Below the pieces are notes generated by a model. The model worked only from the letters and a program-made list of their open reading frames with translations. It ran no database searches and had not been told where the DNA came from. This document shows, in pieces, positions 16,622 to 64,000 of a DNA stretch of 64,000 bases. Source of the DNA: Chrysochromulina tobinii (taxonomy: Eukaryota). The stretch covers positions 1 through 64,000 of the forward strand of contig JWZX01003409.1 of the NCBI GenBank assembly GCA_001275005.1, written 5' to 3'. Positions within the stretch are counted from its first letter, which is position 1; every line of letters begins with the position of its first letter. The translations under genes were made by a program, and so were the position numbers.

Positions 16622-19335
16622 ATGTCGCTTCAGCCCGGCGATGATGTGACGCTCACCGGATTACGTGGCGACGCGTCCCTCAACGGCCAGAGTGGCGTCA
16701 TTCAGCCGAACACCGCCGAAGGGCCACCGCCCGGACGAATCGCAGTGCTCTTGCCAAACCTGCCCACGCCGCGCACGATCGCAGTGAAGCCAGAGAATCT
16801 GATCGCATCGACGCCGACATGCTACATTTGTTTGGAGCCATCGGCCGAGACGGAGCTGCTGTCGATGGGCTGCGGGTGCCGAGGCACATCTCATATGGTT
16901 CATTCGGCCTGCGCCGTGCGGGCAGCGGCCGCGCAGCAAGAGCGCACAAAGTCGTGGAGCTCTTGGCAGCTGTGCCTGACGTGCAAGTTGCCGTACACGG
17001 GGAGACACAAGCTCGTCATGGCGCGCGAGTGGTGCCGTCGCACGAATGAGTTTCCACTGGACGATACCCAGCGCTTCGCCGCTCGAGTGTCCCTGAGCGC
17101 CGCGCTTGCGGCGTGCAGCCTGTACGCGGAGGCGGAAACGGTGGTGCGGGCCAACCTCGAGGCCGCCGCCATGGTGCACGGGCCGGAGCACCGGCACACG
17201 CTTGGCGCGCGCATGAACCTTGGGGTGCTGCTGGAAGCCCAGGGACAAACGGCGACCGCCGAGACTCTGTACGTGGCACTCCTTGACGATCAGCGGCGCG
17301 TGCTCGGCCACGAACACCACGATACGCTCGCGACGGCTATGCAGCTCGCGGGTGCTGCGCTCACGCAGGGCCGCCACGCCGAGGCGGAGGCGCAGTATCG
17401 GCCCATCCTCGCGGCACGCACGAGGCTGTTGGGAGAGGCTCACCCATCTGTTCTCATCTGTGCCATGAACCTGGGCAGTGCGCTGCTGCACCAGGCCAAG
17501 CTGCGGGAGGCCGAAGCGCTGTACCGAGCGAATCTTGAGCACAAGCGCCGACGGCTCGGCCCCGAACACCCGGATACGCTTATGGCCGCGATGAACCTCG
17601 GCGTGACCCTCAAGGAGCGTGGCGACTACGCGAATGCCTGCCCCCTCTTGGCGGAGAATTACGGCGTGAAGGCACGTGTGCTAGGCACAGCGCACGTGGA
17701 CACGTGCTTCGCGGCCCTCAACCTGATCGCACTCTGGGTCGATGGTACGTACGTGGCGAGGTATGAGGAGGCCGAGGCGCTCGCGACACGCACTCGCGCC
17801 GCACTGGAGAGTAGCTTCGGTCCTGAGCACCCAAGCTGCCTGAGCGCACAGGTGATGACCACCCATTGCCGTGGATTGCCGTTCAGTGCCCCTTGAGTGC
17901 CACCAGCTCATCTGAGCTGCCCGAGCGCGCACAGGTGCACTTGGCCATGGCGCTCGAGGCGCGCGGTGATCACGCACGCGCGGCGGAGCTCTATGGGCTC
18001 GCACACGAGGTCCGCATTCGCGTGCAGGGGCCCGAACACCCAGACACGCTCGAGGTGGCATGGCGGCGCGCCGTGCTCATGGGGCGACGCGAGGAGCCTA
18101 CCTCGACCTCTGATTGCCATCTCAATCTCAATCTCAATCTCAATCAGAGGTGCGTGCTCATGGGGCGACACGAGGAGCCTGCCGTGGACCGTGTCGAAGA
18201 GTCACACGGACCAGTGGAGGACTCTGAAGCGCGAGTGGGCGAGTCGCCAGCGCTGCTGCTGCTCAGGGCCACGGCGACGGCGCAGACGAAGGCGCTCGGC
18301 GCGGAGCACCCGCGTACGCTACGGACGCTCGTCAGTTTGGGCGAGGTGCTCGTTGCGAATGGCGGGCCGAAACTTGCTGCCGAGGCGACGACGCTTTGGA
18401 CGCGCTGCGAGGCGGCTCAAAGCGCCGTGCTTGATCCGACGCACCCAGAGCTTATGTACACGCGAGAGCTCTTGGGACGCGTGGCTCGCAACCAGACCCT
18501 TGCGGGTCGGCAGGCCGGCGGCGGGATCGAGGGCCTCAAGGGGCTGGATGACCCGGCCACGTGCAAGGCCGCAGAGGCGATCTACGCGTTCGCGCACATG
18601 AATCAGTGCCTCGAGCGGCTGGACGGCCATCCATGGGATGGAGTGCTCTGCCTGTGCTCGTCGGACCTTCGAGTGGCACGCCACGCAGCCGAGCTCCACA
18701 AGAAGCTGGGTGGCTGGCTGTGCTTCACTGGCGGTATGGGCACTGGTCCACACTCCGGTGCGAATCTTCTTGGGTGGGCCGAGCCCGAGGCAGTCATCTT
18801 CGCGCGCGAGGCGGTCGAGAGGTGCGGCGTACCCAAAGACGAGGTGCTCGTCGAAGCCGACGCGAGGAACACGGGGGAGAACGTCTCGCTCTCCCGAGCT
18901 CTGCTGGCCTCGCACGGTCTCGCTTGCGAGCGCGTCGTCCTCGTGCAAAAGCCGTTCATGGAGCGTCGAACCTGGGCCACCGTGAAGCGTGTGTGGCCCG
19001 AGGTTGACGCGGTGATCTCCAGCCCCGCTCTGAGCCTCGACGCGTGCGTTGCTGGCAGTGGCGTGCCAGCCGACGTGCTCATCGCGATCATGGTGGGCGA
19101 TATGCAGCGGATTCGGCTGTACGCTCTGCCGCCACGTGAGTTTCAAATCGCCCAGCCGATCCCGCAAGACGTGTGGAAGGCCTATGAAACCCTCGTGGCC
19201 GCGGGCTTCACGATGAATGTGGTCCCGACCGAGGATCTCCTTGAGTGGACTCCGTCATGGAACCGGTACGACGAGCGAGATGGATCCGTACCATCCTATG
19301 GAGCCGGTGACGCCCAGCAGTCGCTCAGAGATTGA
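16622..19335 (+). CDS. RING-CH (RINGv) + kinesin-light-chain-type TPR repeats + DUF218/YdcF-like fusion; intron 17852-17934
   Basis: CYICLE..MGCGCRG..VHSAC..CLTC; repeated LGPEHPDTL TPR motifs; FTGG.G, EA.IFA, EADARNTGENV and LVQKPFMERR motifs; phase-0 GT-AG intron joins the two ORFs. Confidence 0.8.
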
Positions 19336-20140
19336 ACACGCCAAGAAGACCACGCCAGGTAGCCATCGGTACAGTTCCACGCCACGACGCCGGTCGGCGC
19401 GGTCGGCGCCGCGGGCGCGCCGGGGGACACACGGCCGAATCGGTCGTGCGCGAATGTCTTAGATCGGTCCATGCGGATACATTCGCGGACGATCGTGCTG
19501 TATCGCGGTCACACTTATTTTTGTTAGGAAAGGTAGCCTCTAGCGGTAGCGCGAGCGCGCGCAGGGCGGGACATCCTGCGTCATACTCATAGAATAAGTC
19601 GGTAACTCCGATTTCGTACGGAGACGATCCGTCAAGGGTAGAGTAACAGACCGCATACGCGCAGCGCGCTAAGCGTACCCTGCGGCTCCGCTCGAACGCC
19701 GTACGAGCACCTGTGGAATCTGCCTCGATACTGACCGCAAAACGAGTCCCGGCCGGCCGCTGACCATGATTGTCCGCGTCGCCGTCCTGCTACTTCCACA
19801 AATCCCCTTGTCCCTCAGACGTCTCAACGTGCCACAGAATCGCTCCCCCGATCGCTCCCCTCCGCGCAGCTCCGTATCGAGCGCACACCCTTTCGCATGC
19901 CTCGGCTCGAGTTTTCGGCAAGCCACTACTGCCTCTGGCCGCCCCCGCCGCTGCAGCCGCCCCGTCGGTCCGACGCTGCCGCCCCGTCGGTCCGACGCTG
20001 CCGCCACCGTCGCCATCTCATCCTCGCCGTCCCAAGCTGACGAAGCTGACGAAGCTGACGAAGCGCGGACGCCTCCTCGTCCTCATCCTCGCCGCCCCCA
20101 TCGGCGGCGCCGGCGCGAGCGGCGCTCACCGCTCACCTCC

Positions 20141-21652
20141 TCATTGCTGTGCGCACTGCACGCGCTGGCCGCCGCCGCCGCCGCCGCCCTCGTCCTCGTG
20201 CTCCTCCTCGGCCGGCTGGTACTCCTTGAACGAGGCGACCGGGTCCATCGAAGTCAGGTTGACGACCTCGACTTCGTCGTCACCTTCCTTGCTCTTCGCC
20301 ACGATCTTCGGGGGCCCGAGCAGCTTTTTGAGGGCGGGAAGGTCAGCGACGGAGATGGAGGTGGGGAACTCGATCGTGAACTTGATGAAGAGGTTGCCGC
20401 TCTCGAACGGTGCCTTGAGGCGCGGCAGGCCCTCGCCCTTGACCGCCATCATCATGCGCGTGTCCTTCGTCGCCTCCGGGTCCTGCAGCACGTAGAGTGT
20501 CGCGCCCGAAGAGGGCGCCTTTGCCTCCATCGCTTGCTCTGTCGTGCACTGCTTGAAAACGGTCTTGCCGTTCCGGCAGACAAAGCAGCCGATCCCCTTG
20601 CCCTTGAGCTGTCCTTTTGACACCGCCTTCTTGCACACGGCCAGGTCCTCCGTCTCCGCCACCGCCGCATTCTCGAGCGACGGGCAGTCCGAGTTCTCGA
20701 AGACCGACCACGTCGCGCTCTCCGGCGCCTCCCCGAGCGGGTCGTACGCGACGGGCTTGATGACCTCGCCCGGCTCCGTCTTGATGAGCAGCTTGCGCCC
20801 GTCGAGCGTCGTCAGGTCCATCGCGAAGCCGCACAGCGCCTCGGACAGCGAGATCTCGCGCTCGATGAAGAGGTCGTCGCCCTTGCGCTTGAACTCGGGG
20901 TGCGGCTGCTCCTGGAGCACAAAGACGACGTCGCCCGCCTCTCCATCAGGGATCTCGTCGGCCTTCTCGGAGAAGTGGACCTTGTGCCCGTCGGGCGCGC
21001 CCTTGGGGATGTGCACCTCGAGCGTCTCCTGCCTCTTCTCCTGCCGGTACATCATGCCCTGCCCGCCGCACGCGTCGCAGGTCTTCTGCACCTGCTGGAT
21101 CATCGGACCCATACGGATGGTCTGAATCTTCGCACCGCGCCCGCCGCACGAGGAGCACTGCTCGACCCCCTTCTGCTTGTCGATGACCTTGCGCGTTAGC
21201 CGCAGCGTGCGAGAGCTGCCTTTCATGATCTGGTCGAGCGTCACCTTGAGCGGGTGCACCATGTTCTCGCCCTTCTTGGCCCGGGACGCCCCAGCCCGGC
21301 CGCGCCCGCGCCCCATCATCTCCGCAAAGGGATCCATGCCGCCACCGCCGCCGCCGTCCACCGCCTCCTCGCCGCCCTGGTCGTAGCGCTCGCGCTTGGC
21401 GTCGTCGCCCAGGATATCGAAAGCCTTTTGGATCTCCTTGAACGCCTCGACGTCACCTCCCTTGTCCGGGTGGTTCTTGACAGCGAGCTTGCGATAGGCC
21501 TTCTTGATCTGGTCGGAAGATGCATTCTTCTCTACGCCGAGCACATCGTACAGCTTCGTCGTGTCTACCTGCTTGCGGGGCCCACGGCCACCCCCTGGCA
21601 TGCCGCCGCCGAATGCATCCTCGAAGCCGGGTGGGAGTCCACCAAAGAACAT
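20141..21652 (-). CDS. Type I DnaJ (DNAJA/YDJ1-like) co-chaperone with CAAX box
   Basis: J domain with HPD, G/F-rich region, CxxCxGxG motifs, C-terminal CAQQ. Confidence 0.95.
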
Positions 21653-21899
21653 GGTCGAAACCGGGTGGCGGGATAGAGGCCTGCGCGGTGCAGAGATGCC
21701 ACACACGCACCGCCGCCGTCAGTGAGAGCGCCTGCACGTAATGGAGGCAACGGCAGCAATGCTGCGCGCTCGAGAGGTTCCGCACCTTCGTCGATGCTCC
21801 GCCCGCGTGCTTTCTAGACGACGCGTCAGCTTCGACGACCGCCGTGTGAACAGGTTTTTCTTTGGAATTCAGAAAAAGAAAGTTGGTCCTCAGTGCGAC

Positions 21900-22962
21900 T
21901 CAATGACTGACGACGAAACGCTGCGCTCCTCGCCCGGCCGACTCGAGCGCCCCAGCCGCGAGCGGCAGCATCAGCAGCAGGACTGTCACGACGGCAGCGG
22001 CGCCAATCCAGGACCTCGAGCTGCCCACCCCAGGACCAAGCGCTCGCCTCTCGGGCAGCGATGGGAGCAGCAGGATGCGCGCGCAGTGGATACGCGTGCT
22101 ACTCGCCGCGGGACGGCCCCAGAGCAGCTTCCACTTATCTGTCTCTGGCTCGCCGCGTCCAAGCACCAGGTCCCTCAGCGTGCGTACGCCACGCGCACGC
22201 CAGCGGCGCGCGAATTGGATGGTGGTGAGTCCATTGGCGAGGAGCAGCGCGTGCACGAGGCCGAGCAGCCCGAGGCTGACGGAGAGCGCGAGAGCCGGCA
22301 GCAGCAGCAACGAGCGAGATCCCATCGCCATGCAAGCGGCCACGTCGGGCGGCGGCGTGCGTATGAGGCCGAGACGAGGGATGTTGCACTGGCGCAGCAC
22401 GCAGTCGGCAAAGGGCGGCCACGCGAGCGCGGACGCGTATGTGCACCCGAGCCAGCAGTGCAGAACAAAAAGCAAGAAGAAGCGCAAATTGTTCGCGCCG
22501 ATGCACCCCCCCAGTAAAGGGGCAGTGGTGGTCCAGGTGCATCACGTGGCGCTCGCAGATGCTGCAGCGGCGTATCGGCGTGTCGGAATGATGCGGCGGC
22601 GTGCCGGCCTCGCAGCTCTCGCCCTCGTCAATGCGCACAAAGCCAGGGTCGACGGCAGCACACATACCGTAGTTCCAGACCGAGTTGATCCAGAGCGCCG
22701 AAATGCCCACGATGTGTACGTACCAGGCTGGCGAGAAAGCCTCGGTCGAATATGGCAATACCGACGCCCAGAATGCGTAATACGCCCACACGCATAAGCA
22801 CGTAACCATGGCGAGTAATACCGGCCGCTGCCATGCCGCGAGGAGACGGCCGCAGCGATTTAGCACGGACGCCGGACAGAAGAGGCGCGCAAGGTCGATG
22901 GTCATGGGCAGCGCCGTGCATCCGACGAAAAGGCACATCCAGTAGACGAGGTCGATCGCCAT
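21900..22962 (-). CDS. DHHC palmitoyltransferase with a 1-nt frameshift in a G7 run (22506-22512)
   Basis: CSICERHVMHLDHHCPFTGG, then CIGANNLRFFLLF continues in another frame; TM helices on both sides. Confidence 0.85.
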
Positions 22963-23263
22963 GGATGCGACCCGGTGCTGTGCACCCCCTGCAGACGACC
23001 TAAATGCGGTTTGTGTTCACACCGTACACGGGAGTCTTTATTACTCATTCACAACCCACCAACACGCACGACACATAAACAGCCACGTTCACACACGCTG
23101 TGTGGGGGGACTTACCGGTACACAAATCGGCGAACGGCCGACCGCCGTCATGGGCTCCAACATTTCTGAATGTTGTGTATTTTGACTACGTGAGCTCGCC
23201 TCAATCGACGCTTGGGCCACTCACTGACAACTCACCTACACAGACATCGCGACGTCGATCCTA

Positions 23264-24034
23264 TTACGGTCCCTCGCCCGCGGACTGCAATGGAACGAGG
23301 GGTGGGCGCGGCACGTCGGACCGCGATTCCGTATACAAAGGGGCCCAAATTTCTTCAGCGACTGCCAGCCGACGGCCCGATGGACTTTGAACCACGCTGT
23401 GCTGCCTCTTGCGATCGGCGTGTGCCGTGTACGTCCACGTCATGTCGGGCAGCAAAACAGAGCACAGCCGGCGAAGGTGGCCCGCCACCTCATGCTGCGC
23501 GGCCGCATCCGCGGCGGTGCGCGTCCAAACGCCCAGGCGCGCACCCGTCTTGCGTATTGCGAGCTCGGCACCACAAATCTCGAGCACATCTGAAGCCAGC
23601 TGCTCGCCAATCAACGCAAGCACGAGTGCCTGCCATGTCGCATCGACAACTTCTCCACCAACGTGCGCACGCTCGAGAGTCAGTGACCACGCACCACCAC
23701 TCGGCCACGCCTCCCAGCTGGGCTGTAGGCCCTCGCGAAAAAAGTAGGTCGTCGTGCCGACGTGCCACCTGGATGGTGGAGCGAGCTGGGCCCACAGCGC
23801 CCAGAAATCCTCGACGAAGGCAAACGGCGGGAGCATGTGCCGCCCATTTTTCCAGCTCGCACTGGATGTCGAAACCTTGCATGGAGATGAGGACGAGGGC
23901 GTACACACAGATACTCCGCAGACGGAAAACTCCCACGGACGATGCAACAAGTGCTTCTTGGCATCATACATGAGCTGAGACGAAGGCCTTTCTGCAAAAT
24001 GTGCTCGACTTTCTTGTTGAAATACCCGCGTCAA
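23264..24034 (-). CDS. eIF4E-family cap-binding protein (divergent); 5' end uncertain
   Basis: H.L..PW, VEDFWALW, YFFREGLQPSWE, GGAW, W..LVLALIGE, ICGA, LGVWT motifs. Confidence 0.85.
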   Translation of the reverse strand: MTRVFQQESRAHFAERPSSQLMYDAKKHLLHRPWEFSVCGVSVCTPSSSSPCKVSTSSASWKNGRHMLPPFAFVEDFWALWAQLAPPSRWHVGTTTYFFREGLQPSWEAWPSGGAWSLTLERAHVGGEVVDATWQALVLALIGEQLASDVLEICGAELAIRKTGARLGVWTRTAADAAAQHEVAGHLRRLCSVLLPDMTWTYTAHADRKRQHSVVQSPSGRRLAVAEEIWAPLYTESRSDVPRPPLVPLQSAGEGP

Positions 24035-38902: not shown

Positions 38903-39057
38903 ACCATTCAGTTCCCAAACAGGTGTGGGGTTAGGGCCTTATAAACATGAAAAATAGTAGACCACTCCCCCTTGGGTCAACCATTCAGTTCCCAAACAGG
39001 TGTGGGGTTAGGGCCTTATAAACATGAAAAATAGTAGACCACTCCCCCTTGGGTCAA
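38903..39057. repeat. Exact tandem duplication, 77-bp unit x2
   Basis: accattcagttcccaaacaggtg...cttgggtca repeated at 38903 and 38980. Confidence 0.95.
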
Positions 39058-40354: not shown

Positions 40355-41319
40355 GATGTTGTGGGGCGAGCGCACCGTCAAGCGTCAACGACGCAGCGTG
40401 CTCGAGCGAGCGGGAAGAGGAGGGACTTGAGTGGGTCTCGCGCGTTCTGCCGCCCGCGCGCGAGTTTGCCACCGAACCGCGCTTCTGTTTGTGCTCACTT
40501 GTGCAGTTTTTTCTTTTTCTGTTTCCGTGCATGCATGCAATGCAGAGAGCAGCGAACCAGCGATGCGTCCTTCACAACTAGGATCTGATCTTTTATTAAA
40601 AACGCATGAAAACACGTAAGAAGCTAAATAAGGCGCTGTCCACCGCAGGTCAGCGCACCCGGTAGTCGGTGCAAAACATACATCAGTTCGGGTTCTTTCG
40701 AGGTACAATTTACGACCTATCGTACGCGTAACTTTTATGAAAGGAGGAGACGCTCACGGTCACTCTCTAGTCGAGCGACTCGTCGAGTCGTTTTCACACT
40801 TCCGGTACGTGTCTCGTGTCACTTCCGTGTTCCGCGGACACACCCAGCCACTCAGCCAGGAGCATGGCCACAGGACGCAGGAGCAGGACGCAGGAGCCGA
40901 GCGTGAAGTGTGCGAGTTCAAAACGCGGAACGTAACATTCGTGACCGCCAGGGACCGGGTCCCGGGCCTCGCTGCTCGCATCGGCACCACACCAGGAGGG
41001 TGCAATCCCTCTCCCCCTTCCGTCCCGCAGCCGCACCGGGGCGCTGCGTGGGTGCGCGTCCGCGACCGTGTACCATACACCCCCGCAGGTGGCCACGCTC
41101 GGCGCCACGGCCGGCGCGCACGCGACGTGCGATACTGCGCGACACGACGGACCACGCAGACCCGAACATCCAGCGTCACGCTCGACCCAGATCTCAACGC
41201 AGTGCTGCCAGCTCTCTGCAACCCTCCCTGCCCCCCCCACACCTACCGGTCCTACCCCATTCTGCAATCACTGATTTCGCAGCAGAGATTCGCTCGAGCC
41301 CCGTGCTCCACCGCAAGGG

Positions 41320-41403
41320 CTCATCGGTATCCAAGTTGATGAGAGGACTCATCGGTATCCAGGCTGATGAGAGGACTCATCGGTATCCAGGCTGATGAGA
41401 GGT
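41320..41403. repeat. 28-bp tandem repeat x3 with internal inverted repeat (ctcatc...gatgag)
   Basis: ctcatcggtatccaggctgatgagagga units. Confidence 0.9.
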
Positions 41404-41449: not shown

Positions 41450-42955
41450 TTACAATGGCAGGAAGAGCGGCGCAACGACGGCTGAGCTTGACGCCCAGTG
41501 GCGAAAGTTCTCGGCAGGCTGTTGCGTGCCCCCTCCAAAGTGGTCCGCGACGGCACGATCGATGGCCTCGGGCGTTGGCACTTGCATGGTATTCGCGTGC
41601 TGCAAGAGTGCCGTCGTCTTCGGCGCGGCGAGCTTGCGCACGCGCGCGCACAGCTGTAGCTGCATCAGGGCTGCTGAGCGGGTCAGGTGCGAGCCCGCGC
41701 CCGGCGCGCCCGGCGCGTCGCACGCAGCATCGACACGGTCACGCAACGTGCCTGCGGTGAGGAGGCCAAGCAGGTAGCCAGCGTCCGCCGTGCTCACATC
41801 ACCGTCAGCGTCCCCGTCGAAGGCTTCGAAGAGTTTCGTCGCGAGGTCGGTCTGTTTGAGAGCTGCGAAGGAGATGAGAGGATCGATCACAGGCAGGTCG
41901 TGGAGGTGAGTAGGTGAACAGGCAGCACGTCGGAGACGGGTCAAGACGGGTCAAGGCAGGCTTCGTGCGCAGGGCGTGAGGTCGAGGTCGAGACGCGGCT
42001 CCGTACGCGGCGTAAGTCCTTCACATTCCAGAGTATGTAGCAGCTTCCACCAAGAACGATCCTTCAAGCGCAGCGGCCCACCGACGACGCCCACTGCGTA
42101 GCGCAAGGCCGGCGCGACCTGCTGCGCGCCGACGAGCGTCAGTGAGCGCACGGAGGGCGTCGTGGACATGCGCAGCTTGTCGAGCTCCGCCTTGAGTCGC
42201 GCCTCCTCAGCCTGCTCTGCTGTCCGAATAGCTCGCTCCACCTCCAGATCTGCGTTGCGGGCGGCCTCGGCGCTCGCACGTGCCACGTCCTCCTTGAGGC
42301 GCTGCGCCTCGAGCGCCTTGTGCGCCTCGTATGAGGCGACCGCCTCCTTGAGTGAGGCCTGCAGCTCGCCGGACTTGCTCTTCCAGCGAGAGATGAGCTG
42401 CGTCTCTTGCGCCTCGCGTTCCTTTTCAAAGGTCCCTGCCTTCCGTCGTTCCAAGTCAGCGCGTTGGCGGCGGGCGGCAAGCGCTCCGTCCTCCTCGGCA
42501 CGCCTCCGCGCGATCGCGGCGTCCTCAGCCGCACGCTCGGTCGCCACCTGTGCGTCCTCTTTTGCTCGCTGCTCCAGCCACGTGAGCCCGGTCAGTGAGA
42601 ACGCGGAGAACTCTCGGTGCATCTCCTGCACGAACATCTCGCTGCGCCGGCGGAATTCGGCATCGACAATCGACACCCCGGTCAGAGGCAGCGGCTGAAA
42701 CCTCGGAAGCGGAACCTCCACACGCTGCTCGTGCACGAACATGGAGCCGGCCTGCAGGCTCACATTCCCCGCACCCGACGACGACGAAGGCGACGACGAT
42801 GACCACGGCATGTGGATTGAGCTCGTGCCGGCGTCCATGATGGTCCCAGTGTCGGCGGTCGCGGAACCGAGCCGACGCTCAAAGAACGACACATCCTTGA
42901 GGGTACTCGGGCGATTGTCGCCTCCATCGAAGGCGTGCGCCAGCGAGGACAGCAT
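41450..42955 (-). CDS. Coiled-coil + EF-hand-like protein; intron 42006-41863
   Basis: Phase-1 GT-AG intron restores frame (LTPP|LKQTD); FDGDADGDVS loop. Confidence 0.7.
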
Positions 42956-48577: not shown

Positions 48578-51500
48578 CTACGACTCATAGAGCGGCGCGG
48601 GCGCAATCATGCTCTGCAATGCCTCCACAGAAGGCAAAGCACTCCTAAGAACATCGTCTCGAATCGGAACTGCCCATCCAGATGCAAACAAGCTGGGCTC
48701 GGTCTCGTCTAAGCTCGGCCTCGTCGCTTGCTCGGCCTCGCTGCTTGACTTCGTCGGCCGGCGTTTGATGGCGATGACCGAGCGGCTCGCAGCCCCCTCC
48801 AGCAAGGCCACGAGCTCCTTTTCTCCCTTCTTCTCCGCGAGCATCTTGGGGGTGTTGTTATGCTTGTCGAGCGCCGCCGCGTTGGCGCCGTGGCTGAGGA
48901 GCAGCTCGACCATGTGCAGGTGCCCCTTGTGCGCTGCCCAGTGGAGCGGCGTGTAGCCCGAGTTGCCCTTATCCTGAATGGGCTCGCGCGTGTTGACGCT
49001 ATGGCCCTTTGCGATGAGCATCTCCGCGACGATCAAGTTGTTATCCTTTGCCGCCCAAAGGAGCGGCTGCCAGCTGTCACTTGCGGAGCCGCCACGCCGA
49101 TTGAGGGTGGCGGTGCCTTTTTTAGAGCTCTCCCCCATGCCAGCGCTGACGCCCTCGGAAAACACGTTCGCCTCAAGCTCCGCGCACAGCAGTCGGCACT
49201 CGACGAGGGAGAGCTGTTTAGGGATCTGCAGCTGTGAACGCGAGTGCGTCACGCCGTTGATCGAGCGGGGCACGGAGTTGCAAGTGCGCACCTTGCCTTG
49301 CGCCATAAAGTCGACAAACGCATTCGCGCCACGTTCGCCCATGCTGTCGTTCCCGCGCACGTCGATCGAGGTCAGTTTGGGGCTCGTCGTCATAAGGTGG
49401 GCTAGCTGCACGGCATCATCCGGCGTGAGCTCGGCATCTCGCAGGTCGATGAAGACGTTTTCGAGCGAGCTGCGAGCATGCATCCAGCCACTGAGCAGCA
49501 TCACCCGCGCTGGCCCACGGGCCTTCCAGCCGCGCAGGTTGAGCTCCGCCCTATCGAACGCGTTCCTGAGCTGGCTGATCTCGTTGGTGAGGGTCCGCTG
49601 TAAATAGAGCGTCTCCTGCATCACCTTCGAAAAGTTGTCGTCGTTATTGAACCACTCGGGTGGGTACATGTACGCGCCGAACTCGAGAGCCTTGCGCAGG
49701 ATCTTACGCGCCAGTGGGTAGTTTGCCTCGCCGAGAGAGTCGCGCAGCTCGAGCTCGATGCCTGCCGCCATGTCCATGAGCATCTTGCGCCGGCGCGAGA
49801 GCACCTGCTCGAGCGTCATCAGAGGTCATCAAGAGGTCATCAGAGGTCATCAGAGGGGAGCACCTGCTCGAGCGTCATCAGAGGTCATCAGAGGTCATCA
49901 GAGGTCATCAGAGGGGAGCACCTGCTCGAGCGTCTGTGCCGACAAGTTGAGCGAGAGGCGCGCAGAGATCAAGAGCATCGATCCCTCGACGTCGGAGGTG
50001 AGTGCCTCGATGCCCGTGAGGGGCGGGAGCAGCACCTCGCGCTCGTGCGGGTACTGCGAGAGCCACGTCAGATCGGCGCCGCGGTCGACCATGCCCATCT
50101 GCATCTCGAAGATGGTCATCGCGTCGCCGTCCTTGCACCCGTGTGAGGCGTACTGAAGAGCTTGCTTCTTGTCGGTCGTTGTCGAGCTGAAGCCGTACTC
50201 GATGCCGCCGCGCACGCCCATCTCATTGGGCACCCAAAACTCCTTTGGCAGCGTGCCATCCTTGATGCCGCGCCACACCTTGCCCGCCTTGGTGAGCTTC
50301 GAGAGCTTGAGCACGCAGCTGTTGGTCGCGTGGATCGAGGTCGGGTAGTCGTTTTCCTTGCACAGGATGCGGCACTGCTGCTGCAAGTACGGGTTGCCGC
50401 TCTTAGCACGCAGGACCGCGTTGTACTTCATGTACATCGGCCCCGTGTACAAACGGCCCGCGATCAACTCTTCGACAATCATCTCGGCATGGTTGGCCTT
50501 CCGAAGGTGCACATTGGCGTTCGACTCCATCTCGCGGCACATGTAGTCGAGGGTGCGGGGCACGCGGCAGCACTCCGGCTGGTGCTCACGGAGGCCCTTA
50601 CGCTCTGGGTAGACGCCCTCGGGCGTCTCGGGCTTCTTCTTCGGGCACACGACAATCTCCCACTCGAGCCACGACTGTGTGGTCACACCGTTGGTCGAGG
50701 TGAACTCGTCGATTGCGTCCGGCCCTGCGCAGTGCTCATTCTCCATGGCTTTCAGGAGGGTAGCTGGAGCGCCCTCGCGCTCCGGGTCCTTGTGCATCTG
50801 GGGCGGCCCGAGGAGCGACTCGAGGCCATCAAGTGGTGATCAAGGGCAATCCGAAGGCAATCGGAGGCATTTGAGAGCACTCACCTGGGGAGGTCCGATG
50901 AGCGACTCGAGGCCGCCGTAGAAGAGGCTGAGCGAGCCATAGCTCATCTGGAACTTGCCGCTCGCCTGGAACTTGTCGTTGAGCGCGGCGGACGAGGCCA
51001 CCTTTTGCTTTCCGAGCGCCTCGACACCGTCCCATAGCATCTCAACTAGCCCGCCAAGATTCGCATCGTTCAGCAGCCGCTCGATCTCGGAGCGCCCGAG
51101 ACGGCGCACAAACTCGAACGCAGGCATCACGTCCCGTGGAGGCACCTGCGTCATCAGAGGTCACCAGAGGGTCATCAGAGGTCATCAGAGGGTCATCAGA
51201 GGGTCATCAGAGGGTTATCAGAGGGTCATCAGAGGGTCATCAGATGGTCATCATGTCCCGGCGCGGAGGCACCTGGAGCGCGCGGCTGATGAGCTTCGAT
51301 ACTCCGAGGCTTGCGAGCCATTTCGCTGTCGACCACTCCCCCTCCGCCTCGACCTCAGGCTCGCCAGAAGGCACCGACGCTGACTCGGGCGCGGACGATG
51401 GCTCGGCGATGCGTACCGGTACGCGGCGATTCCCATTCGACGACCCCAACCGATCAGGACCTGACGCGACCCCCCGTTCGTCCACGCGCTCGCTTGGTCG

Positions 51501-52463
51501 CTCACCCGCGCCTGCTGTGAGCACGCTCGCGCCTGCTCGGCTGAGCACGCTCGCGCCCGTGGCGCTCTGCTGCGGAGCCCGAGCCGCCGACCGATCCCCA
51601 GGCCGACGATGGTGTTTGAGTTCCTCACTGCTCACCTGACGAGCGCTGTCACGAGCGCTGGGGGGACTTGGATCCTGACGGCGCGGGCTGGGCAAAGCCC
51701 CAGCCCCAGTAGCCCTGGGCTCCGGTTTGCCACTCGGCTTACTCCTCCTTGCCGGTGCCCGCTGGCCGGTGCCCCCCGTGCCCCCTGAGGGACCAGCTCC
51801 AGCCCCAAAGAGCTTCCACATCTGTTCAAACTCGTCGAACTCGAGTGTGCCATTGCCGTTCACGTCCACCTCGGCGATGATGGCCTCGACTTCCTCGTCC
51901 GAGAGCACACTGCCCGTCCCCATGTTGAGCAGCTCCTTGAGCTCGTCGATGCTGATTTTTCCATCGCCGTCGGAGTCGAAAATGGCAAAGGCATCTTGCG
52001 CAGACATACTCGCTTGCAAAGGTGTGGCTCGCTTGGCGAACAAGCGGGAGAAGATGGATCGTCCTTTCTCCCTTGCGGCCTTCGAGGACTCTTCGGCTGC
52101 GCGAGTGAAGTGGCGCCAGAGCTTTGCAAACTCGTCGCGCTGGAGCTTGCCGTCTTTATTCGCGTCGACGCCACCTCGAGCCACATCAAACACACGTTCC
52201 ATATCGTCGTCGGACAGCTCGATTGTGACAGCTCTGTTTCGATTGGCCCTATCATCCTTGACCAACGCGAGCTGTAGCGCCCGAGCGGAGATCGTGCCGA
52301 TCCCGTCCGTGTCGAGAGTCGCAAAGGCCTTGTCGGCGCTCATGTCTGTGTTCAGCTTGCTCTTGCTCGAGATGCGCATCGTCGAGAAGAAGCCCGAGCT
52401 TTTCTTGAACGAGTGCGACTGCTCGGGATTCGTATCGAGCTTCGGTCTACGGCGGAATGACAT
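48578..52463 (-). CDS. EF-hand + mono-ADP-ribosyltransferase (R-S-E) + LRR-like + ankyrin protein, ~1184 aa; exons 52463-51273, 51145-50885, 50797-49922, 49804-48578
   Basis: Four EF loops; RLYTGPMY.KYN..LR, KVWRG, GFSSTT, QYPHEREVLLPP; LTSIDVRGN LRR; GYTPLHWAA ankyrins; three phase-0 GT-AG introns join four ORFs. Confidence 0.85.
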
Positions 52464-53254
52464 GCTTGCCGATCGTGCGAGTCGAGAAAGTAGCAGCGCC
52501 CCCCTGCTTGCACAGGAACGCCCTGGCGTGCGTCCATAGAGTCGGCTGTCTGCCCCCCCAATAATAGATCAAGGGCGCCTGTGGGGAATTTTGACAACTT
52601 TAACTTTTACATGCATCCGCGGAAAGGACCGGACCGAAACCGGAGGGTCCAAAACACACACATCTCTCGGAGCTATGGATGGGATGTATCCCTGCGTCAC
52701 CTTATTTGTTTCAAATCGTCATTGCAAATCGTCCTATATGGAACATTTAATTCCCCTATTTGTGTGTGAGTGTGTGACGCACGCGGCCCTAGACCCAAAC
52801 GCCAAAGGGGAGTTTGGTCTTCTATTTTTCATGTTCAGTCAAGTTCGTCGCGCCCCCCCCCGCACTCACCACACGGTCTCTAAAGACGGCTCCGCACCCC
52901 GTCCGGTCGGTACAACGCACAAGTCGGCTGAGTACTCGCTCTCTCGGGTCGCTCCATGATTATGCTAGTGATTCTGGTTATAGGTTAAATTGAATGGGCC
53001 CCGACTTTCAGCGCGCGGGGGCGCCTCGGCGCTGCTGGGACGCTGTTACTTTTTCTGGAATGTGGACAACGTTCGGTTCGCACACACAGCCTCCCCTCTA
53101 CGGAACGCCTGATCTTTCATTCCAGTGACGCGGCCAACTCAGCCCTCAGAGGGTCCTTGGTAGGCAACTTTCAAATCCAGTAAGTTGTGCCTGTGTCCTG
53201 GGGGCGTCAGCAATTCCAAATTCGCGCCGAGTTGGGCATCAGCAGTTCGCGGGA

Positions 53255-57143: not shown

Positions 57144-58562
57144 ATGCTGGACCTCGATGAAGTGCGGAAGCGCAAGAAGAAGAAGAAGAAGAATCTCAAG
57201 CCAACCGAGCTCCTCGTCCTCGTCATTGGCACTCCGGCACGGCATGAGCGTCTTCATCTGTTGCGCGCAACGTGGCTTCGGGATGTGCCGCACATCTTCT
57301 ATTCTGATGCCGCTGCGTCGCCACAGCACGTCAAGTCGAAGGGCTCTCGCGCGCCGCCAAACACGCGTTTTGTGCCAAACTTCCAACATGGATTGAGTGG
57401 AGACGGCTGGATGGGGCGCACAGCCGGAGACTACAAACCATTGCATGCGCTCTTGGATGCGAACTCGACCCGCGCTGGCTCCTTCAAGTGGATTGCCATC
57501 ATCGATGACGACACCACGATCCGTCTGCCCAGGCTGCTCAAAGTGCTCAGCCGGGTCGATCACACGCAGCCGTTGCTCCTAGGCACCGCCGTCATCGACC
57601 GGGGCACTCGCTTTGTCGACTCGTGCACACGGGGGCGCGCCTGGACCAAGCCATGCCGCGTGCCGAATCTGCCGGCGTGCACCCAGAGTCGTGGCGGCAG
57701 ACGGCTCAACGCGTCCGAAGTGCCACAGAGTTGCCGCGTGCAGGGCAAGCCCGGGCACGACGGCCGGCCAGCCAATGCGTGCGCGGACACGTGCTTTTGC
57801 CCCGTGAGCCTTGTACCTGGCAGTGGCGGCGAGGGGCCTGTCTTCCGATTGGATGAGGAGAATGGCACTTCGAGCGTCGCTCCGATGGACACGTTCCCGT
57901 ACGGCGGCTACGGCGTCTTTGTGAGCGCCAGCATGCTGCGTGCTCTAGATCCGGGCGAGTTCCGGCGCTGCGGCCGGCAGCTTGTCTGCGGGCCGAGTGA
58001 CTTTCGACTCGCCTCGTGCATTAAGTCGGTGAGTGGCTTTGGCAGCGGCCTGTTCCACGATCGCACTGATGTGCCGAGGGAGCTGCCAGCTCTGATCGCG
58101 CACGCGTGCGAAAAGCACGAGGAGAACCGAAGGCGCTTGCTTGCACCAGGCGGCAGCACCGGCGGCGGCAACGACGATGACTTGCGGGCCGCCGCAGTGA
58201 GCGGCGCGTCGCCACGGCAAACGTGTTCTGCAGCTGACGTGGCCTTCGTGGCCTCGGAGGAACGGCTATGGCTTTCGGAGGAAGGCGCTGTGAGGCGACG
58301 GCGCGTGGTGGAGGCGCTGCGCGACGCGCACGCCGCCGAGGGCCGGTACACGTGGCACCCAACGCTCCACCGCGGCACCGACAGCGAGCTCTGTTTGCTC
58401 TTCGAGGCGCTCATGCCAGTCGACAGTGCATCGTGGACAGCAGGGGTTGATCGGCTCCCGGCGCGAAGCATGCACAACGAGTCATGTGCGACAATGCTCG
58501 CCGCGATCGTGTCGGCGCGGCGGGAGCGCGCAGCAGCGGGCAGCGGCACACAGCAGATTTGA
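57144..58562 (+). CDS. GT31/Fringe-like glycosyltransferase
   Basis: LRATW, KWIAIIDDDT, FPYGGYGVFVS, SDFRLASC. Confidence 0.8.
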   Translation: MLDLDEVRKRKKKKKKNLKPTELLVLVIGTPARHERLHLLRATWLRDVPHIFYSDAAASPQHVKSKGSRAPPNTRFVPNFQHGLSGDGWMGRTAGDYKPLHALLDANSTRAGSFKWIAIIDDDTTIRLPRLLKVLSRVDHTQPLLLGTAVIDRGTRFVDSCTRGRAWTKPCRVPNLPACTQSRGGRRLNASEVPQSCRVQGKPGHDGRPANACADTCFCPVSLVPGSGGEGPVFRLDEENGTSSVAPMDTFPYGGYGVFVSASMLRALDPGEFRRCGRQLVCGPSDFRLASCIKSVSGFGSGLFHDRTDVPRELPALIAHACEKHEENRRRLLAPGGSTGGGNDDDLRAAAVSGASPRQTCSAADVAFVASEERLWLSEEGAVRRRRVVEALRDAHAAEGRYTWHPTLHRGTDSELCLLFEALMPVDSASWTAGVDRLPARSMHNESCATMLAAIVSARRERAAAGSGTQQI

Positions 58563-58936
58563 GATGAACCCATTGACAGCTGTCCGCGGCGCCTACCACG
58601 GGCGCGCTTGTACATGCTCCCATCACTCGAAGGAGTGGCACTTGACGCGCGGGAATGCATGCGATGATTTATCAGTTATGAGTCGAAGTTGTGAGTTGAG
58701 GTCCTCGCCGTTACTTTATTGAATACGCCCTGGCGGTCCCGTCGGCGCGAGGCCGCGAGGCCGCGACAAAACGAGAAAACGTGAGCGGTGAGCACTGAGC
58801 GGCAGCTCGCCGCGCCAGCCCGCGCGGCTGATGGGAGCTCGAACCTCGTGAACTCACACAAACCTTCCCGTGCCGTTCCCGGTGGCGGTGCCGTCTGCCG
58901 TGCGGTGCACCACTGGACCACGCCAGCTACACGGCT

Positions 58937-61632
58937 TTACCGCCCATCTCCATATAATCGACCCCATGAAAGGCGAGCCATGGTCGTGCGGTGCGGGCGT
59001 GTTTGTGCGGCAGCGGGTTCGTAAGTGTTCGAGCGTAGCATCCGCGACGCCGGCAGGGCGCTTGGAGCGGCCCTCATGCCCGCAGATGGCTGCACAGCCG
59101 TGATCATGGCTCGAACTCCCGCTGAGTAGCGCGGCTGGGCGGCATGCTGGGCGCTCGAGACGGTGACCAGGCCCAAACTGAGCGCACTCTGCGGTCGAAG
59201 CAGGGGTGTGGACCGTTGCGAAGGCAAGATGCCGGCGCTCTGGGGCCTGTTTGCGAGGAGTGAGCTCGTTGACGAGGAATGACCTGTGGCGCTGGTAGCC
59301 TTGCCTCCGGCACTGTGCGGGCGCGTCGGTCGGGTGGAGGCTTGCGTGCTCGTCTGGGCTACGGAAGCATCCACAGAATCAGCTATCAAAGAGAGTGTCT
59401 GTGAGCTCCCACTGAGTCTGCCCTCGTTAGCGCCCACGTGAGCGCCCTCCTGAGCGCCGTCGTGAGCGCCGTCGTGAGCGCCCTCGTGAGCGCCTTCGGA
59501 GTGCGCCCTCGTCAAATCGGGCTCCGGCACTGGCGATGGCGTGTTCGATGTCGTGTTCGATATTGTGTACGATGGCGTGTACGATGGCATCAACCAACCA
59601 CGCACACTTGTGAACAAGTCGCCTCCGGGTGCTCCCAGGATGGCTGGCTTATGAGCCGCCGTGGCGAGCGTCGGACCGGAGGGTCGTGCCTTTGCACGCC
59701 TCAGCTCAGCCAGCGAATGGTGCAGGCCCTGTTGTCGGCCAGCAAATCGTATACGAGATCGGTCGAGATTGTGCTGAGCGATCGCACGCTTCTGACTAAG
59801 GGCGAGGGTGTGGCTGTGCCGTTCGCGCCGCAGCAATTCGTTCATCTTGCCCTCGGCAGTACGTCGCGCCTCTCGCCACGCCTGGTACTCGCCTTCTGCG
59901 TCGCCCTCCATCTCACCCACTGGGAAGTAGGTGAGTATGGGTGCGGATCTCACATGCTTCTTACCCTGCTGCAGCCGAGCATGCTGCAGCCGAGCATGCA
60001 AAGTCTTGGCTTCCACTGTTGCATGCAAAGTCTTGGCTTCCACTGTTGCATGCAAAGCCTCTTCCACTGTTCTCTTGGCCGAGGGATCCTGCTCGTTCAT
60101 GCAGCCCACGAGGGGATCGTAGTTGGGCTCGTGGACCGGTAAGTGGACCGGATCAGCCTCGCTAGCTTTTGCGGCCATCTGGAGCACTTGGTTCACAAGC
60201 AGATCGTTCTCAACGGGCCTTCGAGCCCCAGCGCTCAGCTCCCCCCGCTGATCCGCCTCGATCTCGGTAGATCTCGGTCCTGAGCTCAGCTCCCCCCGCT
60301 GATCCGCCTCGATCTCGGCCCTGAGCTCGGCCTCGATCTCGGCCCTGAGCTCAGCCTCGTCGTCCTCAATGACCGGCTGATCATCCCAACCAGGCGCGAA
60401 GGCCGGCTGGCCTCCCGGCAGCGAAAACTTGCGACTCCGCTCAGGCACGGAGCCCTCCTCACTTGAACGAATCGTAAAGCTTGCCTTGCGCGTGCTGCTC
60501 TTTATGCTGCTCTTGCCGACAGGGCTGCTGGATCCGGCACTGATGCTGGATCCGGCACTAGCCCCGACTTCTTCCTTGCATGATCCATCAGTGTTGAGCT
60601 GGGAATGGGGGGGCGCCAACAGAGCCTCGTGCGCCCAGTGACGTGCTCGCCGAGCTTCGCGCGCTTGGTCCAGAGAGTCTGCCGAGAATGCGTACGGTAC
60701 CAGCAGCACTCGCAGACGCGGCGGCGATGGCTTCCGCTGCGTCGCTACCGGTACTGCTGGCGTGGAGAGCGGCAGCACCGCCTCCTCCCTAGCCGCATTC
60801 ACCGGCGCTGCTCTCTGGATCTCCGCTGACTTCTGCCTTCTCTGCCTGGACTCTTCTGTTGCAGCCTTTGTTACTTTCTCCTCCGCCTCCGCTGCGGCCC
60901 TCACCTCCGCCGCTAACGCCTTCGCAATCGCGATGGCCGTGTCGGCCGCCCTCTTTGCAACCCGATTCCCTGCTGCCTTGGCCGCTCCTGCCTTCGCCTG
61001 CTCCGTCTTCTTCTCTGCACGCCGAAGAATCTGCGCATTCCTGGCCTCCATGGCCGTCTCCCTCTTGATGGTCATCAGCTCAGTCTTGCTCGGAGAGCGC
61101 TCAAGACGGCGCTGGGTCGTCAAGTTGAGGGCCGCGGCTGCCTCTGCGCCCTTGGCATTGGCATCCTTTCGGAGCGCTGCCGTCTTCTGCGCGTCCGCAC
61201 GGGCTGCCTCCACCTCCTGAGCCGCAGCCATCACCGCAGCAGCTAGGGAGGTGGAGGCAGCGGCCATCAGCGCAGCGTCGACTGTGGCGTCCGATGCTCG
61301 TTCAAGCTCATCGGCTCGAGTCATCGCTTGGCTCTCTGCTGTCGCTTGAAGCTGTGCCCACATCCCTACGGTAGTAGCTTGTTGTGGCACCGCCGCTCGA
61401 CGACGCGTAGCCCGACCGCGCGCATGTGCCTGCATCTTCCTCGCCGCCGCCGCCATCGCCGCCACCCTCTTCACCTTCTCGGCCGCCTTCGCCTCCTCTG
61501 TGAGACGAAGTGTCTCCTCCGCTGCTCTCGCCGCCTCCGCGGCTCGCTCGGCCGCCCGTCGGCGCTCTCGGCTTCCGCGTAAGCGCTCGCGAGCCTCGAG
61601 TGCCTGCTGATTATTCGAGGTCACGCCTGCTG

Positions 61633-61687
<55 letters not shown>

Positions 61688-62305
61688 CACGCTGCCCCCA
61701 GCCACGGGTGCGGCTACTGCAGCCGCCTCGGTCGCTGCCATCAATGCTAGCGCCGCCTCGGCCTCTCGGAACGCCTCGACGTTATGCAGCGCGGCGCTCG
61801 CGGACGCTACGATGGCCGGCGCGTCACATGTGACCAGCTCTCGCAGACGACCGACTCCGCCGCCCTCGTGCAGCAACTCCACAACCGCGGCATCCGAGGA
61901 GAGGTTTTGGACGCAGGCACAGGCATACGCGACGTTCAGCGCCGTGGAGGAGCAGAGATGAATCATAATTGTCGATATCGCGCCGCTCGCCTTGATGATC
62001 TCGGTCGTGGCCGCTGCGTGCTCGCGATCGTCGTCTGAGCTGGTCACCGTCGCCAGGAGCATGAGCGATACCTGATAAATGACTGGTGTGGAGTGCGCGG
62101 CTAGCTGGCAAATTCGTTCCATGGCACCACTATTACGCATGGTACTGCAAAGTGAAATGAGCTCAGAGCGTTCCTCCGTCGAATCAACCACTTGTGCGAG
62201 TTGGATCAGGGCCTCCAAGGCCGCCTCGTCGGTTGTTGCGACAGTCAGCGCATTACAGAAGGCGTCAAAGGATGCTCCGAGCGACGCGCCAAAAGATTCT
62301 GACAT
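58937..62305 (-). CDS. ARM-repeat + IQ motif + coiled-coil low-complexity protein
   Basis: ARM-like helices (GGVGRLRELV..ASAALHN); MQAHARGRATRR IQ motif; poly-Ala. Confidence 0.65.
61629..61686. repeat. (GCT)n microsatellite encoding poly-Ala
   Basis: Direct read of sequence. Confidence 0.9.
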
Positions 62306-62735
62306 CGAAAGAGGGCGAGGCGCCAGGCTCCAGCTGAGATCAGCTGGTGCGTTGTGCAGTGGGCCTTCGTTGGTACTTGTCGTGAACTGCTTTTCCTGTT
62401 CCGGGTGCCTACGGGTGCATGCATTCGCCCCAAAAGTACGGACCACCTTGGCCCTTGCACGGGGCACCTCTCCATAAGTTCGCCATCACACGCCATTTCA
62501 TGTATGAACCATGGGCGTTGGGCAATTGACCATTGTTAGAGACATGACACATGTAAGTGACTGATTTGATACGATAGAGAATATGCGCTCACTGGACACA
62601 GACCAGCATAATTATCCGAAGCATGCTCAGTATACAGATGCGCGCGTCCACCGAGCACTTTCTCGAGTGTCGTCACTGCACTCTGTGCAAGGCGCGCCTG
62701 GGCGCGCCACTCGTGACCGCCTCTGGCGAGCCCCC

Positions 62736-64000
62736 TCACTCGAGGTGAACAGGCGTGCTGAACGTGCGGCCGGCGACGCGATCGGCGAGGCCCTCGCCCT
62801 GGTAGCTCGCCATGGGGGAGAGCTCCACGATTGCATCGCCGCGGATCGCGCCGCCCGCCGCGAGGATCCGGCGCTTGCTCAGCGCCGAGACGAGCGCGCG
62901 CGCCGTGTCGGGCGAGTCGCTCTTGGCGCCGGGCTCGTTTTTGACGGGCGCGAACTCTTCGTCACGCGCCACCTGCAGCGCGGCCATCTGCTTGGCAAAG
63001 GGGAACGTGTCGAAGATGAAGAGCTCGAGCTTGATGCCGTTGTTGCTCGTGGGCGTGCGCCGCGTGCCGCTCGCGTCCGTGTACGGGATCTTCTTGTGCG
63101 CGACGTGCAACGGCAGCTGGATCCCAAACGGGCCCAGACGCGCGCAGAACGACTTGAGGAAGGGCACCGAGAAGAAGTTGACGCAGATGTGCGCGTCGCC
63201 GAAGAGCAGCCGGCCGTGCGCGTCCTTCGCCTCGGCCATCTCCCTGGAGATCTCGCTGTACTCGACGACGGCGGGCCGGCCGCCCGCGAGCGCGACGACA
63301 CCTACAGGCTCGTGCGCGTCGCGCTTGGGCACCGTCTTCGAGGCACAGTCCGCGTGGCGCGCAGAGCAGAAGCCCACAAAGGTTGGGTCCGCCACGTGGC
63401 ATAGGACGTTGTCGACGCCGAATTGGAAGATCGAGGTGACGCCGCTCGCGTCGAGCTGCTCGAGGAGCCGAGCATGCATTGGGATCAGGGTCAGGGACAG
63501 GGTGCAATCAGAGGTCATTAGCATGCGAGCATGCATTGGGATCAGGGTCAGGGACGGGGTGCAATCAGAGCTCATCAGCATGCGAGCATGCATTGGGATC
63601 AGGGTCAGGGACGGGGTGCAATCAGAGCTCATCAGCATGCGAGCATGCATTGGGATCAGGGTCAGGGACGGGGTGCAATCAGAGCTCATCAGCATGCAAT
63701 CCACACCTGCTCAAGGAGCCCGGAGTCGCGCAGCGAGACGTAGCAGCCGCCATTGCCGTTGGGCGCCATCGCGAGCAGCCCCGGCGCGTCCAAGATCAGC
63801 TTGCCTTCTGGTGTCAGGCATGGCAGCGCGCCCTGAGCGAAGAAGTGCACTTGATCCTCGGGCAGCCCGAAGAAGGCATGCTGGCGGAAGAAGGCGCGCG
63901 TATCGCTGTCGGTCGCGTCCGAGGTCATGATCAAAAAGGGCAGGCGCACGTCCGCCTCCCTCTTACCGGCGTGCGCGGCCGCGAGCTGCTTCACCTTGCG
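62736..64000 (-). CDS. UAP1: UDP-N-acetylglucosamine pyrophosphorylase, 5'-partial; intron 63706-63456
   Basis: IMTS, FFGL..QV.FF.QG.LPC, APNGNGG, GVDN.L..VADPTFVG, EPVGV, VVEYSEI, KLELFIFD, EEFAPVKN. Confidence 0.95.
63470..63697. repeat. 57-bp minisatellite x4 filling the UAP1 intron
   Basis: gagcatgcattgggatcagggtcagggacggggtgcaatcagagctcatcagcatgc units. Confidence 0.95.

What the first reader, a model, noticed from the sequence alone, without database searches (positions are those of the whole stretch)
17852..63706. Family of 'duplicate-and-fill' introns: exon-junction duplication plus a shared, strand-polarised CTCTGATGAC/GATTGCC filler
Seen: five predicted introns in three unrelated genes (17852-17934, 49805-49921, 50798-50884, 51146-51272, 63456-63706) each carry a 12-30 nt copy of the adjacent exon at the junction CAG. 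The interior uses the same vocabulary (CTCTGATGAC, CTCTGATTGC, GATTGCC), always in the transcript-sense orientation, in both + and - strand genes. The other predicted introns (two in YTH; 41863-42006) lack this. Known: intron gain by tandem duplication of an AG|GT site, by double-strand-break repair and by introner transposons; CTGAY matches the branch-point consensus. Inference: an active intron-generating process in which a long target-site duplication supplies the splice sites and a templated repeat supplies branch points. It lacks the TIRs and fixed length of typical introners.
Basis: partly seen in the sequence, partly recalled or inferred. Interest (0 to 1): 0.88.

Follow-up and report, generated by a model that had tools for sequence, protein, structure and literature searches.

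The report
Repeat-filled new introns in an alga
Several introns of the freshwater alga Chrysochromulina tobinii consist of a short copy of the neighbouring gene sequence plus a one-way run of a shared 10-base repeat, likely scars of DNA-break repair that create new introns, and a related alga shows the same layout with chromosome-end (telomere-type) repeats as the filling.

Summary
Real and beyond chance. The window is Chrysochromulina tobinii (haptophyte). Two of the five introns are spliced in RNA contigs; the other three are supported by homologues that read exactly across the junctions. Each carries a 14-30-nt junction duplication (at most 2 of 200 shuffles as good) and a sense-only array of CTCTGATKRC-like 10/11-mers. 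The family reaches beyond the window: 10 of 28 testable unrelated loci with this repeat show a flanking duplication. Most homologues lack these introns, a 50%-identical paralogue has the same intron start at the same site, and near-identical ORFs without them exist (DNA or RNA origin unresolved). A different haptophyte has four introns in the orthologous gene, three with long duplications, all filled with (CCCTAA)n. Best reading (0.5): staggered-break repair that copies repeat from other such introns and leaves a variable target duplication; selection for splicing explains the polarity. Telomerase-like, retrotransposon-tail and later-microsatellite origins remain open. This scan noted telomere-filled versions on other DNA and a repeat-flanked intron family in this genome before; ten literature searches found no description for haptophytes. 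New variant of a known kind.

The parts
17852..17934 (+). Intron in RING/TPR/DUF218 gene, 83 nt; 60-nt degenerate 10-mer filler
   Evidence: RNA contig skips it; Pfam
17834..17854 (+). First copy of the duplication (18 nt exon end + GTG)
17915..17937 (+). Second copy of the duplication (intron end + GTG of next exon)
18073..18180 (+). Sixth duplicate-and-fill unit: 27-nt copies 81 nt apart around CTCTGATTGC and (ATCTCA)4.5; in frame, splicing not shown
   Evidence: region masked as repeat
49805..49921 (-). Intron 3 of EF-hand/ART-domain/ankyrin gene, 117 nt = two tandem units (58+59 nt) with an internal CAG|GT
49916..49934 (-). First copy of the perfect 19-nt duplication
49858..49876 (-). Internal third copy of the 19-nt duplication
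   Evidence: sequence
49799..49817 (-). Last copy of the 19-nt duplication
50798..50884 (-). Intron 2 of the same gene, 87 nt; donor supplied by the filler; last 30 nt copy the upstream exon end (50885-50914)
51146..51272 (-). Intron 1 of the same gene, 127 nt; first 24 nt copy the downstream exon start (51125-51145); 10/11-mer array
63456..63706 (-). Intron in UDP-GlcNAc pyrophosphorylase gene, 251 nt; about 4 copies of a 57-nt unit; last 14 nt copy the upstream exon end (63707-63720); donor supplied by the filler
   Evidence: RNA contigs of two studies skip it

Best explanation
These are spliced or homology-supported introns made of a 14-30-base duplication of the gene around a splice junction plus a sense-strand array of a shared 10/11-base repeat, and they likely arise when a staggered DNA break in an exon is repaired by copying repeat sequence from another intron of the same family. 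Shown: the anatomy, the splicing of two, the absence from most homologues, the recurrence at unrelated loci. Inferred: (1) the stagger is filled in on both sides, which gives the variable-length duplication; (2) the broken end primes on a dispersed copy of the repeat (DNA or RNA of existing family introns) and brings along stereotyped intron ends such as GTGATGAC, GTGCTCCCCTCTGATGAC or CTCCCTCATCAG; (3) only events survive in which duplication plus insert give AG|GT in the same register and the array faces the sense way (few AGs, CTGAT words, stops), which yields the polarity without a strand-aware enzyme; (4) the flanking repeats then let the unit double (49805) or collapse, so gains are reversible.
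For: Duplications beyond shuffles. Sense-only filler in 5 of 5, also in the sixth unit and in an unrelated haptophyte-like contig L182 whose intron starts with the same GTGATGAC as 17852. The donor comes from the filler at 50798 and 63456, so filler and duplication must have worked together. 10 of 28 testable antisense ORFs with this repeat share sequence across the array (6 in frame, 0 of 1500 mismatched pairs; 4 frame-shifted, 0.4% null); 22 of 90 carry the same acceptor-end module (0 in reversed controls). At the 49805 site 49 of 51 aligned homologues read through; P0178 (50% identical) enters an intron with the same start, P0162 an unrelated one, and the tree forces at least 3 changes. No UAP homologue examined has an intron at the 63456 site. 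The same anatomy with (CCCTAA)n occurs in haptophyte locus L041. Repeat insertion with occasional duplication at repaired breaks is documented for telomeric repeats (PMC2246262, passages).
Against: No donor or enzyme was found; no genome was held. In-register microhomology is weak and inconsistent (0-5 nt, either end). 18 of 28 testable loci show no long duplication. Duplications in 4 of 5 introns have diverged (1-3 substitutions, 2 indels), so they are not brand new. Intron-less near-identical ORFs (P0281, P0283, P0285) could come from transcript assemblies. The shared intron start in P0178 could also be transfer between paralogues or one old gain with several losses. In mammals only 5-16% of telomeric insertions have a duplication.
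Confidence: 0.5

Rival explanations
1. Telomerase-type synthesis: a reverse transcriptase with an internal RNA template adds repeats to a broken end before rejoining. In other haptophytes the template gives CCCTAA; in C. tobinii a changed or second template would give the 10-mer.
For: L041 fillers are (CCCTAA)n, the haptophyte telomere repeat (PMC3622300; PMC11347835), in the same anatomy and always C-rich on the sense strand. The UAP filler holds CCCTGA-type words. Earlier notes of this scan report telomere-filled duplicated introns elsewhere (unchecked).
Against: The C. tobinii telomere repeat is unknown (no such statement in the search listing or in the genome paper). Units vary (GAC, TGC, GTGC endings; 10, 11, 57 nt). 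Microhomology is not confined to the priming side. Inserts carry non-repeat end modules.
Confidence: 0.17
2. Tail-only insertions of a non-LTR retrotransposon or SINE-like element by target-primed reverse transcription: variable long target duplication, repeat tail, 5' truncation; in effect an introner without fixed ends.
For: Variable duplications of 14-30 nt and simple-repeat bodies fit this chemistry (own knowledge). A recurrent acceptor-end module is in 22 of 90 loci; L041 introns end in similar ..CCAG/CAG/AAG ends with the donor taken from the duplication, as in dinoflagellate introner classes (10.1101/2020.10.14.339549).
Against: The five introns share no common end and only 31-78% global identity; in 4 of 5 the acceptor comes from the duplication; no longer parent element was seen.
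Confidence: 0.18
3. Two separate steps: introns arise by plain tandem duplication of an AG|GT site or are older, and the array is a genome-wide intronic minisatellite that spreads later by slippage and gene conversion because it is harmless or helpful on the sense strand.
For: Three of five sites have CAG|GT in the spliced exon. Tandem duplication can make an intron (PMC3265369, abstract). Emiliania introns are repeat-rich (10.1101/283549, passage; 10-11-bp repeats in its introns are recalled from Read et al. 2013, not held). The control intron and L022 introns also hold tandem repeats without long duplications. P0162 has another intron at the 49805 site.
Against: At 50798 and 63456 a duplication alone gives no donor, and a 14-nt duplication would shift the frame. 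The perfect 19-nt duplication at 49805 already has a full array. Duplicated-only introns without filler were not seen in genes of the window.
Confidence: 0.15

Closest known systems
Introners / introner-like elements (Gozashti et al. 2022, PMC9860276; Roy et al., 10.1101/2020.10.14.339549)
   Same: New spliceosomal introns whose splice sites are partly recruited from a target duplication; one-orientation bias; GC and GA donors; haptophyte families exist, including a Chrysochromulina MAG family with 4-bp duplications and no inverted repeats.
   Different: Described duplications are 3-9 nt and fixed per family, members are alike end to end. Here they are 14-30 nt and variable, lengths 83-251 nt, body a low-complexity array. 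That survey included C. tobinii and filtered low-complexity families out.
Intron gain by tandem duplication of an AG|GT site (Rogers model; Hellsten et al. 2011, PMC3265369)
   Same: Donor in the first copy and acceptor in the second copy of a duplicated exon stretch restore the message exactly.
   Different: There the intron is only duplicated exon. Here foreign repeat lies between the copies and in 2 of 5 cases supplies the donor.
Short interstitial telomeric sequences inserted at double-strand breaks (Nergadze et al. 2007, PMC2246262)
   Same: Tandem repeat inserted at a break, sometimes with a duplication and 1-5-nt microhomology; matches the (CCCTAA)n introns of locus L041.
   Different: Not described as making introns in the passages read; duplication is the minority outcome; the C. 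tobinii 10-mer is not a known telomere repeat.
Break-repair intron gains flanked by short direct repeats in Daphnia (Li et al. 2009; recalled, not read)
   Same: Recent, partly parallel gains with flanking direct repeats.
   Different: As recalled, the inserted sequences share no common repeat vocabulary and the repeats are shorter.

Membership tests
Introner (transposon-derived intron family) | Members alike over nearly the whole intron, up to both splice sites | tested here: not met
   Pairwise global identity 31-78%, lengths 83-251 nt, different ends
Introner (transposon-derived intron family) | Fixed short target duplication (3-9 nt) and/or terminal inverted repeats | tested here: not met
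   Duplications 14-30 nt; first 15 nt match the reverse complement of the end at 3-8 positions only
Introner (transposon-derived intron family) | Recent gain: empty orthologous sites | tested here: inconclusive
   Empty in more distant homologues; near-identical empty ORFs exist but DNA versus RNA origin is unresolved
Introner (transposon-derived intron family) | Autonomous partner transposon | not testable with these tools
   No whole genome held
Tandem-duplication intron | Duplicated stretch contains AG|GT and supplies both splice sites | tested here: not met
   True for 3 of 5; at 50798 and 63456 the next exon starts ATG and CTC
Tandem-duplication intron | Intron consists only of duplicated exon | tested here: not met
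   57-237 nt of non-exonic filler
Telomerase-made interstitial repeat insertion | Insert equals the organism's telomere repeat | not testable with these tools
   C. tobinii telomere not available; met for L041 if its telomere is the haptophyte CCCTAA
Telomerase-made interstitial repeat insertion | In-register microhomology at the primed end | tested here: inconclusive
   0-5 nt at either end in 8 introns
Non-LTR retrotransposon tail insertion | Variable long target duplication | tested here: met
Non-LTR retrotransposon tail insertion | Constant 3' end shared with a longer parent element | tested here: inconclusive
   Recurrent end module in 22 of 90 loci but not in the five introns; no parent seen

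The most novel reading that the evidence does not exclude
Haptophytes run a telomerase-like intron factory: a template-carrying reverse transcriptase heals staggered breaks inside exons with repeats whose complement reads as a branch site, leaving a long duplication that supplies the junction; C. tobinii has swapped the template from the 6-base telomere repeat to a 10-base one, and the same exon site is hit repeatedly and reversibly.
Probability: 0.17. Interest if true: 0.92.

Novelty: new variant of a known kind. Interest (0 to 1): 0.7.

Why it matters
Where new introns come from is an open question, and current surveys credit transposons while discarding low-complexity intron families as microsatellite noise. 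This case suggests that the discarded class holds a large route of intron gain that needs no autonomous element, with a lineage-specific repeat (a 10-mer here, the telomere repeat in a relative). C. tobinii is cultured, sequenced and has close wild relatives, so empty and filled alleles, parallel gains at one site and precise loss through the flanking repeats can be counted directly.

Tried and rejected
No whole genome was held and the contig behind L001 could not be searched, so no genome-wide intron scan was possible; L001 is identical to the window over 11,262 nt. Four scans of viral contigs gave no haptophyte arrays: 0 hits for three patterns and single chance matches for a 14-mer. The prokaryote-genome scan gave 4 loci, two of them apparent algal contaminants, each the only array-bearing contig of its bin; L180 begins with the array at a contig end, which I do not take as evidence of a telomere. 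The homologue search for the TPR gene gave only distant TPR proteins. The DNA run X21 covered too little to show empty alleles; one 151-nt piece spans the 50798 boundary with no difference. The sixth unit fell in a masked repeat. Rfam found nothing in the window, so the resemblance of TGATGA/CTGA to snoRNA boxes is set aside. Assembly artefact rejected: the same intron start is in many independent assemblies. Classical introner and pure tandem duplication rejected as membership (see table). Differences between duplicate copies fall mostly at third codon positions, but the numbers are too small to use. Three papers were not held.
Full report
Organism and genes. The middle exon of the gene at 48578-52568 is 100% identical to an annotated protein of Chrysochromulina tobinii CCMP291, so the window is from this freshwater haptophyte. 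The five introns lie in a RING/TPR/DUF218 gene (+), an EF-hand/ART-domain/ankyrin gene (-; three introns, here ART1 51146, ART2 50798, ART3 49805) and the UDP-GlcNAc pyrophosphorylase gene (-; UAP). No whole genome was held.

Are they introns? RNA contigs skip 63456-63706 in two studies and 17852-17934 in one. For the three ART introns no joint row was visible (15 of 49 joints listed), but one RNA contig of 857 nt fits 50264-50797 and leaves exactly at the ART2 boundary, and homologues from 98% down to about 60% identity read across the junctions with no indel (20 proteins examined; 52 of the 120 listed hits).

Is the duplication more than chance? Anchored at the junction, the copies are 21, 19, 30, 24-27 and 14 nt long; 2, 0, 0, 0 and 0 of 200 dinucleotide shuffles of each intron score as high. 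Among all 495 CAG|GT..CAG pairs 60-260 nt apart in the window, the five rank in the top 10, beside tandem and domain repeats. The control intron 41863 scores 0. The structure is always A-D-filler-D-B with the junction inside D. In four introns the junction sits near the end of D (exon end copied to the intron end), in ART1 near its start. At ART2 and UAP the next exon starts ATG and CTC, so the donor is in the filler. ART3 is a doubled unit (58+59 nt) with a third copy of D and an internal CAG|GT.

The filler. A loose motif occurs 28 times on the sense strand and never antisense in 665 nt, 42 per kb against 0.5 elsewhere (motif taken from these introns). All five fillers align to a cyclic CTCTGATTGC array better than shuffles (1, 0, 0, 0, 1 of 500) and not in antisense. 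The exact 10-mers are in only three introns; TPR and ART2 hold degenerate units and no CTRAY word, which weakens the branch-point argument. The antisense strand carries more AGs than the sense strand in all five (4-26 against 0-3), a simple reason for selection on orientation. There are no terminal inverted repeats and the introns are only 31-78% alike. A sixth, in-frame unit at 18073-18180 has the same make-up; its splicing is untested.

Beyond the window. Of these, 28 had usable flanks on both sides: 6 share an identical peptide of 4-9 residues across the array (0 of 1500 mismatched pairs) and 4 more are compatible with a frame-shifted copy (0.4% of the null); 18 show nothing; one positive is a tandem unit and one is borderline. 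22 of 90 hold a peptide that corresponds to one recurrent acceptor end, against 0 in reversed controls. Contig L182, an algal-looking contaminant of a bacterial bin, has a sense-strand array that starts with the same GTGATGAC as the TPR intron; its 3' end is not established.

Are they recent? No UAP relative examined at DNA level (L004, L005, L022, L035, L041) has an intron at the UAP site. At ART3, 49 of 51 aligned homologues read through (some are spliced models or transcripts); P0152, P0161 and P0182 appear to run into other introns, so they look like unspliced DNA that lacks ART3. Two break at the site: P0162 into unrelated sequence and P0178, a 50%-identical paralogue matching another C. 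tobinii gene, into the same VLPSDDL start as the window. On a 43-row tree the intron-bearing rows need at least 3 changes: three gains, transfer between paralogues, or one gain with many losses. Within the 90% cluster, 10 of the 15 members listed (of 36) end inside ART3, while full 1174-residue ORFs lie on contigs of up to 12.7 and 14.8 kb, and P0285 starts inside ART1 yet reads through ART2 and ART3. This fits presence/absence variation but transcript assemblies could give the same picture. At ART2 the intronic copy keeps the Leu codon found in most relatives while the exon has Ile, consistent with duplication before the change. Four of five duplications have diverged, so only ART3 looks very young.

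The telomere-filled relative. Loci L035/L041 encode the UAP orthologue of another haptophyte (tree support 100 for the haptophyte clade). It has four introns at other positions, all filled with sense-strand (CCCTAA)n; three start with a 15-18-nt copy of the next exon (0 of 200 shuffles) and use GC or GA donors; the fourth has no long copy (26 of 200). Removing them gives a stop-free protein colinear with an 87%-identical relative at all four junctions; there is no RNA check. CCCTAA is the haptophyte telomere repeat (PMC3622300, passages; PMC11347835, passages). So the anatomy is shared across haptophytes and the filler is lineage-specific.

Mechanism. Variable long duplications point to a staggered break filled on both sides; a shared filler with stereotyped ends points to copying from a dispersed template, most simply other introns of the family. 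In-register microhomology is 0-5 nt at either end, which does not favour telomerase specifically. I put templated break repair at 0.5, retrotransposon-tail insertion at 0.18, telomerase-type synthesis at 0.17, later microsatellite spread at 0.15. The chemistry of these routes is from my own knowledge except where cited.

Literature. Read: passages and supplement rows of PMC9860276 (file cut when stored, so unseen rows could bear on C. tobinii), which screened C. tobinii, lists other haptophyte introners and removed low-complexity families; parts 1-2 of 4 of 10.1101/2020.10.14.339549 (duplications 3-8 nt); passages of PMC2246262, PMC11282704, PMC4580454, PMC12480563, PMC8287931, 10.1101/283549 (89); abstract and opening of PMC3265369; a term search of PMC12130899 with no haptophyte mention (58). 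Recalled only: Read et al. 2013, Li et al. 2009. Ten searches found no description of duplicate-and-fill repeat introns in haptophytes; subscription journals are largely outside the library. Earlier notes of this scan describe telomere-filled duplicated introns in other microbes and a 66-nt repeat-flanked family in this genome; I did not check them.

Verdict. Observation confirmed, interpretation partly supported. A new variant of known intron-gain routes; interest 0.7.

Noticed in passing
window 38903-39057: Perfect 77-bp tandem duplication spanning a CAG|GT and a telomere-like word, with no filler, apparently between genes.
   Followed up: no
window 41863-42006 (-): The control intron has a 10-nt tandem repeat and borderline likeness to the filler (25 of 500 shuffles); may be an old member without a surviving duplication.
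   Followed up: partly
window 49858-49876 (-): Internal CAG|GT makes ART3 two back-to-back introns of 58 and 59 nt with no exon between; recursive splicing is possible.
   Followed up: no
window 63456-63460: The public gene model P0005 has an extra Gln at this junction and is fused to an upstream WD40 gene, whereas RNA contigs skip 251 nt.
   Followed up: partly
L001 about 1400-1700 (beyond the window end): Two near-identical short intron-like inserts in a WD40-repeat gene, a different family without junction duplication.
   Followed up: no
L041 928-1070: Telomere-filled intron with a predicted GA donor; two neighbours use GC donors.
   Followed up: partly
L022 275-410 and 768-945: Another haptophyte UAP gene with GC-donor introns filled by other tandem repeats, one sharing GATTGCACCCC with the window's UAP filler.
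   Followed up: no
window 48578-52568 (-): EF-hand/ART-domain/ankyrin protein belongs to a large family (416 hits), with named members in haptophytes; function unknown.
   Followed up: partly
window 16550-19335 (+): Unusual RING-variant + TPR + DUF218 fusion; only distant TPR proteins found among longer proteins.
   Followed up: partly
window 5459-14689 (+): 3076-codon stop-free frame rich in tandem repeats with only one weak Pfam match.
   Followed up: no
window 41316-41402: Three copies of a 28-bp repeat containing CTGATGAG just past the end of the gene with the control intron.
   Followed up: no
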